A stretch of 64,000 bases of DNA from Sphagnum compactum (lineage: Eukaryota). The notes under the pieces were generated by a model that was given only the letters and a program-made list of their open reading frames with translations, was not told the origin of the DNA and did not search any database. The position numbers and the translations under genes are program-made. The stretch covers positions 11,780,001-11,844,000 of the forward strand of contig OZ234494.1 of the NCBI GenBank assembly GCA_965153455.1, in the 5' to 3' direction. This document shows, in pieces, positions 52,761 to 58,114 of the stretch. Within the stretch, counting starts at the first letter, position 1; each line of letters opens with the position of its first letter.

Positions 52761-53775
52761 GAAAGGAAATATGGTGAATGAATAATGTAGTAGGAGGAAA
52801 TGATTTTCATTGATCATTGCAATAATTTCCTAATGAGTTATAAAAATATATGTCAATGTTGAGGAGTTTGTTCCTTCTTGAATCTATTTCAAGAATGATC
52901 AAACTCCTTTACATTGACATATGCTATTAATATATTTCCACAAATTACAACAATATAACAATATTCCCTCTTCACAATTCTATGAATATAGACTTGTGTT
53001 TTAGCATTGGAACTAAAAATGTGGAATTGAAGTAGGTTAACTAAACCAAGATTGAGTAATTCATTACACAACCATGTAAACCTATGTTTTATTTTTGCAA
53101 CATCACCACCTTATGTGGGAATCTCTTATTCCATAACAATAACGTCAATAAACCTTTTTACAAAAGCCAACCTTTATTATCATGTTACATATGCTCCCAA
53201 GTCAAATGCTAAACCATTCCACATTCATTTTTTAAATACAAAAGGAAAAGGAACCATAGCAATTGCAATCATAATTAAGGTGAGGATTATTCCAATTGGC
53301 AACTACTATTATGATTACAACTTGTACTATTCCAATTACAACTACTATATTGATTGTGACCATGAATGTACCCCTATAATGAATGAAGAATGGAATGATA
53401 TATTATGCCATGCACATTCCATTTGATTCATCCATCCATGATTACATCAATGAATGACATAAAATAAACTTAGGTTTTTTCTCATAAGCCTAATGATTGT
53501 TTCATTTATGTGGATGTGATCGGCAATATGTTGTAAATGCAAATCAAGGATGAAAAACCTCAATGATGATGGCACATAGGTCATGGTTTATGAAACATGT
53601 TTTTATAAACAATGTTTCATTTAATTCAAACATGACCTTTCCAATCATGTTATAAACATTCAAAAATATTTGAGAATCCCAAATAATGGTTCATTCCACT
53701 TACTTACTTACTTACTTACAATTTAGCGTCATTAAGTGGGCCAAACAGCGCCCGGGCCAGAAAGCCCAATTGACA

Positions 53776-56700
53776 TTAAGTCTGATGAAGCAATTCAGAT
53801 CTAACCGTCTGACATTGCACTAAAAATCTAGCAAGGATGCCTTGCTGCTGACAGCTCAACAATTCAGCCAAAGGTGTGATGGCAGTTAGTGGCAATGAAC
53901 CTCTAAACCTCTCTCGAACACTTTGATAGGCAGGGCAAACCAACAAGAAGTGGTCCTCATCCTCAACCGCACCCAAGTTGCACAATTTGCAATAACGCTG
54001 CTGCACAGGCACCTTCACTGGCTTGACTTGCCTTCCGAGCTCAATTTGCAGCTTGTGATTCGCACAACGAAAACGTGCCAAGCTTCTCCTAAACGTGCAT
54101 TGTTTACCCTGGAGAGGTATTCTTTGTACCCATATTGTGCTGAGCTATTCAACCCCATATAGGCTCTCACCTTGCTGGAGTCAGCTGTAGCCACTTGATG
54201 GTGTACAATGTATTGCCTTTCAACCAACTGCTTGAGGCGAGCACATGGTGGCAGCTGATCGCTATCGATGCACAAATTGTACGTCGACAGTCGTTCATCT
54301 ACTTGTGCTAGCCAGCAAGCAGGCAATCGACTCTTTCTACCCACAGCATTCTAATTCCCGAGTAAGACTTTTCGCCTGGCTGCAAGCAACTACAGCTGTA
54401 CATCATAAGCTAGCCTGAGCATGCGATCTGAGTCTACCTCAGAACTGACACGTGAGAGAAAGCGCATGGTCTGTTACCACCAAAATATTTCTAGGGGAAA
54501 CCTGCCAAACTCTGCCAGCACGATGTAACTGGATGTCGTGGTGCTGACCCCCAGCGACGACTTCAGAAAAGCCTGATGAACCACCTCTAACTGTTCGCGT
54601 GCCATGTGGTCTGACCATACTTCACACCCATAGCTAAGCACTGGTTTGACTAGTGCATCAAACAGCTGGCATTGTAATGCTGGATCAAAGATGCGCAGCT
54701 CTGCGCATCTGCGCCGCAATGCAAAAACTGCCTTTTTCCCTGACATTACTAACCGCTGTATTGTAGCTTGCATACCTTTTGTGCCATGCAGCTCAACACC
54801 TAGATACTTGAAAGAGTTTAGTTGCTCTATAGTTTCGCCCTCATACTGAAAAGCCTGACACACAGACTTGCGTGCTTCAAACACAACAACCTTGGTTTTC
54901 TTGACATTCACAGTCAACTGACGCTCACCGCAAAAAGCTTGCAAGACATCTAGTTGCTTCTGCAATCCAGCAGGAGTGTGTGACATGAGAGCTAACTCGT
55001 TTGCATATAGAAGCAAGCGAACAGTTAGCTGTCCCAACATTGGTGGTGCGTCACCCTCCAAAGCATTTAGCCGTTTCTCTAGGCCATCTATGAAGAGGCC
55101 AAACAGGAGCGGGCTGAGGGGGCATCCTTGCTTCACTCCGATGTGGCAGAGGAAAGTGGGCGTGAGCCCCTCTTTTGGATGGTGCAGGCAGGCCTGGTCT
55201 TGACGGTACATGGAGCGCAAGCACTCCAGTATCCGCCCACTGATGCCAAGTCCCTCCAGCACCTGCCACAACAGGTCCCTTGGTACTGTATCAAAGGCTT
55301 TTTTGAAGTCCACAAAACAAGTGTATAGCTTTTTTTTCTGAAATCTGGCTTGTTCGGTCATAGTGCGAAGAATAAACAAGTTATCTGTTGTCCTAAAGTC
55401 CTTTCTGAAACCAGCCTGTCCCTTTGCACGTGAATCATTGGTCTCCGCCCATTGACTGATGCGGGACTCAAGAATCATTGCAAACACCTTGGCTAAGACT
55501 GGTCCTACTGTGATCCCCCTATAATTATACAGTGCATGTATGATCCCAACAGAGAGTGATTCACAATAGCCCTCATGCAGTATTTTGTTAAAAGCAATCA
55601 ATAGTGGTTGCTGCAGGGCAACAGCCGCATCCAAAAGGAACTCTGGTTTGATGCCATCAATGCCTGCAGCTTTGTGTCGTTTTAGCTTTTTGAACGCTTG
55701 CTGTACTTCAACTAGTGTGATGTCAACATTCAACTGTTCGCAATCAATACCATTGGGTGGAAAGGAGATCACCTGGGCTTGAATAGCGGCACCTGCCACA
55801 GCTCCTGCTGTGGCTGGTGCCGCCGGAGGCTGCAGTAGTTGCTAGAAGCCATCCCTGAGCGCTTCGTTGGTGATGCCATTGACACCCTCAGTGGGCTTGC
55901 GGTACCGCTTCCAGAATGCTGCAGGATCTGCCTTCGCTAAACCACATAGCTGCTTAGCCTTGAGCACATCATAAGCACGTTTCTTCCTTTTGTACAATTG
56001 TTTCATTTGCTTAAGTCTGACCTACCTATCTGGGTGTACATGTGACAATTTAGCAAATTGGCTTTTGGTCTGGCGACATTCTGTGTCAAACCAGGGTTTG
56101 TGGCTGTGCTTTATTGCTTTTCCTAAGGCCACTTGTCTATTTCTAAACACTTTTTCTGCAGATTGTGTGATGCACTGTTGTAATAGATTGACTATTGTTT
56201 GTACGTCAGATGCATCAAGTACATCTGAGCTTGCCCAGACACCGATGTTATGATGTACATTCCTGCTAAACTCTGCTGCTTTGGCAGTGTCATATTTAAA
56301 ACGTGTTAGGTGTTTGATCGCCTTTTGCTGAACAGGAGGGGGTTGCCACTGCTGTGTGATTGTAAGTACCAATGGTTTATGATCAGAGTGCGCATCTTTG
56401 TGACCTGAGTACTTTTCATCGCAGTTAACCTCTAAATGCTTGACACCCTCTAATTGGTCAGCTGTCGTAAGAAAATAGTCCACAGTGCTAAAACCTTTAT
56501 TGGATAGGCATGTGTACTCCCCTTATATGTCTCCTGGTGTGCGGCCATTGAGGATGAACAGCCCAGTAGTTCTGCAGAGATCCAGGAGCTCACGATGCCA
56601 GCTAGTCGTGACAGTGTCGCGGTTCTGGCGCTCCAGAATATCGTTGGGCAGGGTGTCCTTAATGGCATGTGGCACCAGCAGCACATCTGCTAGTTGACTG

Positions 56701-57191
56701 TAATCAATGAAGTCAGTGTTTGTGCCTGTCCTTGCATTGAAATCCCCAGCAAGAAGCACACCGCCTAAGCTCATGGCTTTTCCAACCTCTTGGCATATGT
56801 GTTCAAACAGGCTGCTGTCCACATATGGCGAGCCTTGTGGAACAGCATATACTATGCACAGGAACAAAGGCCTTTTGAAAGCATTGCCCAAGCGCAGCCA
56901 AATCCTAGTCCCATCCCTTGCAGTCTTCCAAACAGCAGTACTATTTGCCCATGTTTCCCTGACTAGTACCGCAATGCCTCCACTGTGCTTTCGAACGACA
57001 CCCTGTGTAGTCACAGGCCTGGTAACATCAAAACAGCAGAACCCCGGTAGGGCCGGGAATGTATCGCCCGGAAAGTGATGTGTTTCTGTCAAAGCAACAA
57101 CGTCAACATGTTGAAATAGGTCAAGCAGATGTTCATGTGTTTCTAGCTTTGTGATAGCGGCCCCATGGATGTTCCACAAGCACACGCGCAA
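53776..57191 (-). pseudogene. LINE ORF2: APE endonuclease - reverse transcriptase - CCHC zinc finger
   Basis: LRVCLWNIHG, LTETH, GDFNAR, VDYF, SDHKP (EN); NYRGIT, QAGFR, FVDFKKAFDTV, GVKQGCPLSPLLF, YANE in place of YADD (54996-55007), FKYLG (RT); CKLC...EDEDHFLLVC. Six in-frame stops and one frameshift near 54090. Confidence 0.93.
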
Positions 57192-57212
57192 GTGTCTCTG
57201 GCCCCCGCCCCC

Positions 57213-58079
57213 CTATGCAGTAGGAGAGTTTACGACTTTGTGGTTGATATAGAGATCGGCCCCACGCCAGTTGACCCGTTCGCCAGCCTCTTTGGCCTCC
57301 TTGAAGGTGGCCCAAGCAGCTCGTTTCTAGGCCTGCTAAGCGGGAGTCAGGTCCTTGTCGAGCCCAAGCTGAGTGCCCTGCAGGCCTTTGCGATTGCGCA
57401 GCACCGTGAGTTTGTCGTGTACCGATGCCAGCGTGATGATGACTGCCGGTGCCTTGTCAGTGGCCTTATCGGGTCGCCCCGACGACATCTGCCGGTGCAC
57501 CTTCTGCACCTGCACACGGTCAGCAACCTTCAGCCTGTCGAACAGCTTTGTCTGCACCAACTCCATAAGTTGTTTTGAGGTTTCCCCCTTGCTCATGGTT
57601 AACTCGGTGACCCAGATGTTTGCCTCCCTGGCCTTGACCAGGTCAGCATCCGTTGCCCGGTCCACCTTGTTGGCAACCTTGTCAACCTTCCTGCCCACAA
57701 CCTCCTTCCACTTCTCCCCACTGTCCTGCATGGTATCAAAACTCTTAGCCATCGCATCTACTTTATTTTGCAGCTTTTCGACTTGGCCAATAACGGCCAC
57801 AATCTTAGCTTCCATTACTGGAGCCAGAATGTTTTCCGCAACCTGCTCCATAGTGACCTCAATAGCATTGTGCACATCCTGTTTCGTCACCACATCGGCC
57901 CTAGGGACCATGAGATGGTTAACGATGGCTGTTGCAGCGGCTACCTTGCCGGTCTTGGCAGGCTTGAGGTTGTAGCGTGTACAGAGTGCCTAGAGTTCAG
58001 CCGCCTGCATCTCCATGATCGTTAACAAGTCCTTGTTCCATTCCCATGCTTTAGCGTCGAAAACCGTGGCATTCGTCAT
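57213..58079 (-). pseudogene. LINE ORF1 (~288 codons): SAP-like N-terminus, coiled coil, RRM/CTD-like region
   Basis: ATG at 58079 is in frame with ORF 57336-57911; three internal TAGs (57992, 57338, 57329); continues ...DLTPA*QA*KRAAWATFKEAKEAGERVNWRGADLYINHK to TAG at 57215-57213. Confidence 0.8.
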
Positions 58080-58082
58080 TTT

Positions 58083-58114
58083 CTAAACCCTAAACCCTAA
58101 AAACCGTAACCTAA
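58083..58114 (-). promoter_or_regulatory. Telomere-type (TTTAGGG) / telo-box repeats immediately 5' of the ORF1 ATG
   Basis: Minus strand reads TTTAGGGTTTAGGGTTTAGAAAATG; a degenerate second cluster lies at 58579-58616. Confidence 0.55.

What the first reader, a model, noticed from the sequence alone, without database searches (positions are those of the whole stretch)
57150..57240. LINE ORF1 and ORF2 share one frame, joined by TAG-GGGGGCGGGGGC with no ORF2 start codon: readthrough signal or fused single ORF
Seen: on the minus strand ...CCT ACT GCA TAG GGG GGC GGG GGC CAG AGA CAC TTG CGC GTG TGC TTG TGG AAC.... ORF1 (ATG 58079) and the endonuclease motif LRVCLWN are in the same frame, 7 codons after the TAG, with no ATG between. 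An imperfect stem (CCA-GAG-ACAC / GTGT-G-CTT-G-TGG) starts ~11 nt after the stop. Known: gammaretroviral gag-pol uses UAG followed by a purine-rich spacer and a structure for readthrough, whereas two-ORF LINEs usually use reinitiation or translational coupling. Inference: this family either makes an ORF1-ORF2 fusion by programmed readthrough or encodes one ~1430-aa polyprotein. Caveat: this copy has many decay TAGs, so the junction TAG may be a mutated CAG.
Basis: partly seen in the sequence, partly recalled or inferred. Interest (0 to 1): 0.75.

Follow-up and report, generated by a model that had tools for sequence, protein, structure and literature searches.

The report
LINE stop codon paired with tail
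In five related families of a jumping gene, the two genes share one reading frame across a conserved stop codon, and the RNA just behind that stop can pair with the element's own tail 3.5 kb away, which suggests the copying enzyme is made by a readthrough switch so far described in plant RNA viruses.

Summary
Observation confirmed; mechanism extended. The junction stop is real: 127 of 137 junction-bearing copies have TAG or TAA and none has CAG, while decay stops revert. Three more families in this genome (44-53% identical in the endonuclease) and one intact 33%-identical element from another organism keep an in-frame stop. Four of the five families lack an AUG before the endonuclease. Instead, bases +9 to +19 after the stop are complementary (9-16 bp) to the loop and 3' arm of a hairpin at the element's 3' end, about 3.5 kb away. 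Three positions show compensatory changes, two resting on one element. This resembles tombusvirid long-range readthrough (UAG-GGR) and the 8-nt spacer-then-helix of MuLV. Best reading: programmed readthrough stimulated by the 3' end, making an ORF1-ORF2 fusion from full-length RNA (0.65). Against: no translation data; family B has an in-frame AUG and a UAA-GGC subfamily; pairing is weakest in the window's own family. LINE readthrough was suggested before for Paramecium, and this scan noted in-frame LINE junctions in two other genomes. I found no report of the long-range pairing.

The parts
58083..58100 (-). Telomere-repeat-like (telo-box-like) motif just before the ORF1 ATG; varies between copies
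   Evidence: Sequence; similar but non-identical motifs before the ATG in most of 12 family-A copies
57216..58079 (-). ORF1, 288 codons, coiled-coil-like N-part plus L1-type RRM-CTD; decay TAGs at 57992, 57338, 57329
   Evidence: Translation; family profile matches human LINE-1 ORF1p structures, E 6e-6; coiled coil is by eye
57213..57215 (-). Junction UAG, candidate readthrough codon
   Evidence: Stop in 127 of 137 copies tallied, CAG in none; the only stop in a 1491-codon frame of the intact distant element L231
57205..57212 (-). 8-nt spacer; first codon GGG kept in families A, B1, C, D, E though unpaired in the model
57194..57204 (-). Proximal pairing element, +9 to +19 after the stop (10 bp incl. 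one G-U with the 3' end in this copy)
   Evidence: third codon positions identical in all four own-genome families at 5 of 7 junction codons vs 12 of 161 in the endonuclease, p 1e-4
56733..57179 (-). APE-type endonuclease domain (WN motif at 57171-57176)
   Evidence: Pfam PF03372, E 1.8e-9
54789..55526 (-). Reverse transcriptase domain
   Evidence: Pfam PF00078, E 3.2e-28
53935..53991 (-). C-terminal Cys/His motif of ORF2
   Evidence: Translation; role inferred
53776..57212 (-). ORF2 frame as a whole; broken in this copy by six decay stops, a short deletion and a frameshift near 54090
53754..53767 (-). 3' UTR hairpin (5-bp stem, pyrimidine loop); its loop and 3' arm (53754-53763) are the distal partner of the junction, so hairpin and long-range helix exclude each other
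   Evidence: Hairpin predicted in all five families; pair table
53699..53718 (-). Tandem-repeat tail, five TAAG units
   Evidence: other families end in other short repeats

Best explanation
A decayed copy of an APE-type LINE family whose ORF2 is made by programmed stop-codon readthrough. Shown: in-frame stop, conserved context and conserved complementarity. Inferred: most ribosomes stop at UAG and release ORF1p. In full-length RNA the loop of the 3' hairpin nucleates on bases +14 to +19 after the stop, and its 3' arm replaces the hairpin's own 5' arm. This gives a 9-16 bp helix that starts 8 nt behind the stop, where readthrough-stimulating structures of MuLV, alphaviruses and tobraviruses start. 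A near-cognate tRNA then reads UAG and a roughly 1440-residue ORF1-ORF2 fusion is made. The passing ribosome melts the helix, and the 3' hairpin refolds and can be bound for reverse transcription in cis. ORF2 is thus made rarely, and only from RNA with an intact 3' end. Family B may have relaxed the stop context or moved toward AUG reinitiation.
For: Stop conserved, CAG absent. Five families down to 33% identity keep the frame, the fifth across a 15-nt length difference. No ATG in the spacer of own-genome A, C, D or of E, and no near-cognate start at a shared codon (by eye; D has none). UAG-GGG matches the Tombusviridae context and the 8-nt spacer matches MuLV/tobravirus geometry (PMC3159437 passages). 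The best helix of the junction within the whole downstream element lies 15-38 nt from the 3' end in 7 of 11 elements (one a tie); 0-3 of 300 tail shuffles reach it for B1, one B2, C, D, E. Compensatory changes at +10, +11, +15; the +15 partner is a hairpin loop base, so the local hairpin cannot explain it. E's junction pairs with its own tail at -15.5 kcal/mol and 0 mismatches, and with the other tails at -5.0 to -7.7 and 2-4 mismatches. No spliced copies among 71 family-A junctions.
Against: No translation, proteomic or structure-probing data. Family B has an in-frame ATG at codon +10 in 37 of 40 copies and a 21-copy clade with UAA-GGC-type junctions (support 100/99). B1-B2 differences in ORF2 are 18 synonymous to 15 non-synonymous, so ORF2 was probably made without UAG-GGG, with the pairing kept. 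In family A the helix is shorter (9-11 bp; 14-21 of 300 shuffles reach it) and is not the best helix in 2 of 3 elements, including the window's. Predicted cofold gain is only -1.6 to -3.6 kcal/mol for D and two A copies, and D's lowest-energy fold lacks the helix. A and D junctions do not prefer their own tails. Two of the three compensatory positions rest on one element, L231. The RT tree does not resolve A-D, so +11 may be one event.
Confidence: 0.65

Rival explanations
1. Termination-reinitiation helped by the same long-range helix: ribosomes stop at the stop codon, are held by the helix and restart nearby, at an AUG in family B and at non-AUG codons elsewhere, making a free ORF2p.
For: Family B has an in-frame AUG 27 nt after the stop and tolerates UAA-GGC while keeping the pairing. 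SART1 coupling needs a downstream structure, and L1 uses unconventional reinitiation (PMC5972666 passage). That L1 can do so without AUG is recalled; the paper was not held.
Against: No shared near-cognate start; family D has none before the WN motif. Reinitiation does not need stop and ORF2 in one frame, nor UAG-GGG. B's Met sits three residues before the conserved Trp, where other families have Val, Phe or Thr, so a start there would cut the first endonuclease strand (inference).
Confidence: 0.2
2. The pairing serves RNA survival or RNP assembly (folding the 3' end back to the ORF1 stop to escape nonsense-mediated decay, or to favour cis binding), and ORF2 comes from basal or context-only readthrough.
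For: An ORF1 stop 3.5 kb from the 3' end is a likely decay trigger (own knowledge). The pairing persists in B2, where the stop context changed.
Against: Does not explain the fixed start of the helix 8 nt behind the stop in all five families.
Confidence: 0.1
3. TAG|G or the conserved CAG is a 3' splice site, and ORF2 is made from a spliced RNA.
For: TAG|G fits the acceptor consensus, with pyrimidine-rich sequence upstream in A and B.
Against: 67 of 71 family-A junctions carry the ORF1 end directly upstream; the other four are one G-run deletion and three with unrelated flanks. A spliced, ORF2-encoding RNA should be copied in cis (inference). C lacks the pyrimidine tract, B2 lacks TAG, and E has CAT for CAG.
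Confidence: 0.03
4. A fused single ORF, with the TAG a decayed CAG.
For: One predicted protein, P0004, has Gln at the junction; CAG-to-TAG decay is common here.
Against: CAG in 0 of 137 copies; the genome-wide motif search with a non-T first base gave 2 matches, neither a LINE; the intact element L231 has the TAG as its only stop.
Confidence: 0.01

Closest known systems
Tombusviridae PRTE-DRTE readthrough (CIRV, TCV; PMC3234231 abstract, section 14 and first part of section 15 read)
   Same: UAG-GGR stop; pairing over about 3.5 kb between sequence 3' of the stop and the genome's 3' end; distal partner within a 3' replication element with mutually exclusive folds; proposed roles in quality control and cis-preference.
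   Different: Here a retrotransposon, not an RNA virus. No conserved local stem-loop with a bulged PRTE; the long-range helix itself starts at +9. No experiment yet.
Gammaretroviral gag-pol readthrough and the 8-nt-spacer stems of alphaviruses/tobraviruses (PMC3159437 passages)
   Same: UAG-G, 8-nt spacer then a helix; structural protein fused to a polymerase.
   Different: Their structures are local (compact pseudoknot, or stems within about 100-150 nt); no protease domain was seen here to cut the fusion.
Paramecium Group 3 non-LTR elements (PMC5405496 passages)
   Same: ORF1 and ORF2 in one frame; readthrough of the ORF1 stop suggested from consensus sequences.
   Different: A separate ciliate clade. 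No signal, pairing or test is given in the passages seen; supplements were not read.
SART1 stop-start coupling and mammalian L1 reinitiation (PMC5972666 passage)
   Same: Bicistronic LINE RNA; SART1 needs structure downstream of the junction; ORF1 here is L1-type.
   Different: No overlapping stop-start here, and no AUG in four of five families.
RTEX / RTE-X LINEs of green algae and Marchantia (PMC3747384, 10.1101/827881, PMC3905857 passages)
   Same: ORF1 present, APE + RT, short tandem-repeat tail, 3' stem-loop of the kind described for stringent LINEs.
   Different: Clade membership was not tested against labelled references; no esterase was found in ORF1.

Membership tests
APE-type non-LTR retrotransposon (LINE) | APE endonuclease followed by RT in ORF2 | tested here: met
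   Pfam PF03372 and PF00078; nearest solved proteins R2 and L1 ORF2p
APE-type non-LTR retrotransposon (LINE) | ORF1 nucleic-acid-binding protein | tested here: met
   Profile matches L1 ORF1p RRM-CTD, E 6e-6
APE-type non-LTR retrotransposon (LINE) | Dispersed copies, 5' truncation, simple-repeat tail | tested here: met
APE-type non-LTR retrotransposon (LINE) | Target-site duplication | not tested
   5' boundary not defined
RTEX (RTE-X) clade | RT phylogeny with labelled RTEX references | not tested
RTEX (RTE-X) clade | Tandem-repeat tail rather than poly(A) | tested here: met
   PMC3747384 table passage; shared with other clades
Type III (UAG-G) readthrough site | UAG followed by G, in frame with the downstream ORF | tested here: met
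   Families A, B1, C, D, E; subfamily B2 has UAA-GGC
Type III (UAG-G) readthrough site | Structure beginning about 8 nt 3' of the stop | tested here: met
   By prediction and covariation only; long-range helix +9 to +19
Type III (UAG-G) readthrough site | Measured readthrough product | not testable with these tools
   Needs reporter, proteomics or ribosome profiling
Tombusvirid PRTE-DRTE system | Long-range pairing with the 3' terminal region | tested here: met
Tombusvirid PRTE-DRTE system | PRTE in a bulge of an extended local stem-loop | tested here: not met
   Local folds differ between families and are no better than shuffles in the window copy
Tombusvirid PRTE-DRTE system | Distal element in a switchable 3' replication structure | tested here: inconclusive
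   Exclusive hairpin predicted in five families; its role in reverse transcription is inferred
SART1-type translational coupling | Overlapping stop-start | tested here: not met
   None in any family
L1-type reinitiation | ORF2 AUG after a short spacer | tested here: inconclusive
   Absent in A, C, D, E; present at codon +10 in 37 of 40 B copies

The most novel reading that the evidence does not exclude
A lineage of LINEs gates its reverse transcriptase with an RNA switch: the 3' hairpin that the enzyme binds for reverse transcription alternately pairs 8 nt behind the ORF1 stop to trigger readthrough. This would make a Gag-Pol-like ORF1-ORF2 fusion only from full-length RNA, and give an RNA-level basis for cis-preference. 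In-frame ORF1-Gln-endonuclease proteins predicted from distant relatives hint that the arrangement may extend well beyond these five families.
Probability: 0.5. Interest if true: 0.9.

Novelty: new variant of a known kind. Interest (0 to 1): 0.8.

Why it matters
How bicistronic LINE RNAs make ORF2p, and how ORF2p prefers its own RNA, are long-standing questions; the tested cases are reinitiation or coupling. Here the sequence gives a specific, mutable signal: an 11-bp helix whose natural compensatory variants define the experiment. If confirmed, it puts a tombusvirus-like long-range readthrough switch in a nuclear retrotransposon, ties ORF2 synthesis to 3'-end integrity, and predicts an ORF1-tethered ORF2p. 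It also warns that short dual-luciferase cassettes without the 3' end would miss the effect.

Tried and rejected
CAG consensus: rejected. RNA runs: contigs of four moss/plant RNA libraries cover the junction. One joint was listed (66 nt, depth 2, one contig, non-GT-AG ends, TAG kept). No other letter was listed at the TAG, but 479 rows were not shown and contigs cannot show strand, level or absence, so this is no evidence either way. More relatives with DNA: four scans of viral contigs found none. Searches of 401, 401 and 48 prokaryote genomes found only the known contig. A search for longer forms of L231's ORF1 found none among 8000 candidates, which is weak evidence. Rfam: no match. PDB search with the endonuclease alone: nothing meaningful. 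In one search families B and C were mixed by a faulty rule; the counts used are. One search's junction pattern was mis-spaced and found nothing.

Full report
Observation. The element lies on the minus strand from about 58100 to 53699. ORF1 (ATG 58079), TAG 57215-57213 and the endonuclease motif are in one frame with no ATG between. ORF2 has an APE domain and an RT domain. ORF1 matches L1 ORF1p by profile. This copy is dead, with several decay stops and a frameshift. The host is a 382-Mb genome; close relatives turn up in moss metagenome runs, so a moss is inferred.

Is the stop real? I tallied non-redundant junction-bearing copies among the loci fetched. These are a sample: the genome searches score only their best candidates, and the metagenome scan kept 80 of 149. 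Own genome: family A 12 TAG of 14 (one single-base deletion, one truncation); B 16 TAG, 23 TAA, 1 TTG of 40; C 20 TAG, 1 TAA of 21; D 3 TAG of 3. Metagenome family A: 48 TAG and 4 TAA of 59, the other 7 with indels or truncations. None of 137 has CAG. In 51 ungapped A copies the junction is a stop in all, while decay columns reach at most 12 of 51. A genome-wide motif search gave 56 exact matches beginning TAR and 2 beginning with A, C or G, neither in a LINE. Copies are not all independent: some share flanks, and metagenome contigs repeat insertions.

Conservation across families. B, C and D are 44-53% identical to A in the endonuclease N-part and have different ORF1 ends, yet keep the stop 13 codons before the conserved Trp. 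A fifth family, E (L231, 33% identity, another organism), is intact: one TAG in a 1491-codon frame, 18 codons before the Trp, with no ATG between. In A-D the third codon positions are identical at 5 of 7 junction codons against 12 of 161 in the endonuclease (p 1e-4). The constraint is therefore on the RNA.

The long-range helix. Bases +9 to +19 after the stop are complementary to a segment near the 3' end. For 11 complete elements I asked where the first 30 bases after the stop pair best in everything downstream. In 7 the best helix lies 15-38 nt from the end: 11 bp in C and D, 12 in B, 16 in E, and 9 (a tie) in one A. The four exceptions are the window copy, another A and two mutated B2 copies. 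Shuffles of the last 100 nt reached the observed score in 0-3 of 300 for B1, one B2, C, D and E; in 14-21 for A; and in 38 and 125 for the mutated B2 copies. The pair table over 16 elements shows G-C (A, D, E) versus A-U (B, C) at +11, G-C versus A-U (E) at +10, G-C versus U-A (E) at +15, and C-G versus U-G (E) at +12. E's junction pairs well only with its own tail, B/C junctions prefer theirs, and A/D junctions do not discriminate. The distal partner is the loop and 3' arm of a 4-5 bp hairpin found in all five families, so the two folds exclude each other. The +15 partner is a loop base. A 3' stem-loop is typical of stringent LINEs (PMC3747384 passages); that this hairpin is the enzyme's binding site is inference. 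Predicted gains from pairing run from -1.6 to -21.3 kcal/mol, and D's best fold lacks the helix.

Mechanism. In Tombusviridae readthrough occurs at UAG followed by GGR, and in MuLV, alphaviruses and tobraviruses the stimulatory structure begins about 8 nt after the stop (PMC3159437 passages). In CIRV, readthrough needs a 3.5-kb interaction with a switchable 3' replication element (PMC3234231). The LINE junction has the codon context, the spacing and the long-range partner. I infer readthrough into a roughly 1440-residue fusion, limited to RNAs with an intact 3' end, with the hairpin freed as the ribosome passes (0.65).

Against. Family B has an ATG at codon +10 in 37 of 40 copies. A clade of 21 copies has UAA with GGC or its decay forms (41 rows in the tree, support 100/99). 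Fixed B1-B2 differences in ORF2 beyond codon +1 are 18 synonymous and 15 non-synonymous, which suggests selection on ORF2 in that lineage, though the branch cannot be assigned. So ORF2 was probably made without UAG-GGG, by UAA readthrough or by reinitiation. This keeps helix-aided reinitiation (0.2) and an RNA-survival role (0.1) open. Splicing is unlikely: no spliced copy among 71 family-A junctions.

What is known. Two earlier notes describe in-frame LINE junctions in other genomes; I did not test them, and the lines shown mention no 3' pairing. Reviews give SART1 coupling and L1 reinitiation as the known routes (PMC5972666 and PMC5009743 passages). Nine full-text searches, judged from listings and abstract starts, showed no long-range readthrough element in a LINE. 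The library lacks most subscription journals and Repbase Reports, and I read no supplements (those of PMC5405496 and PMC3159437 may bear on this). RTEX is the likely clade by resemblance only. PMC4176336, PMC11203168, PMC3905857 and 10.1101/827881 were seen as passages.

Verdict. A real, conserved feature. It works like a tombusvirid long-range readthrough signal but is not a member of that system, since it lacks the local PRTE stem-loop. New variant of a known kind; interest 0.8.

Noticed in passing
window 58083-58100 and 5' ends of L003-L016, L183, L187: Telomere-repeat-like motifs sit directly before the ORF1 ATG but differ between copies, with unrelated sequence further up. This may reflect capture of, or insertion behind, telo-box promoters rather than a fixed 5' UTR.
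   Followed up: partly
L021, L022, L025, L030, L146-L179 (family B2): A 21-copy clade changed UAG-GGG to UAA-GGC in the one family that has an in-frame AUG, and kept the long-range pairing: a possible natural switch of expression mechanism.
   Followed up: yes
proteins P0116, P0123, P0144: Distant predicted proteins run from an ORF1 end into the endonuclease in one frame with a Gln 11-12 residues before the WN motif.
   Followed up: partly
L201-L227, 3' ends of family A: Family A has a long and a 2-nt shorter form of the 3' hairpin; the short form pairs over only 9 bp with the junction.
   Followed up: partly
L001/L005, L003/L006/L013, L007/L010: These copies share 250-590 nt of 5' flank at 95-99% identity, so they are duplications or share a captured 5' piece and are not independent insertions.
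   Followed up: partly
L231 (contig CADCWO010000055.1): An intact LINE of this lineage lies on a 4.8-kb contig filed in a cyanobacterial genome bin; it is probably eukaryotic DNA of unknown host.
   Followed up: partly
family A copies, codon columns: Decay is dominated by C-to-T and G-to-A at CAG/CTG and CG sites, as expected from plant-type methylation.
   Followed up: no
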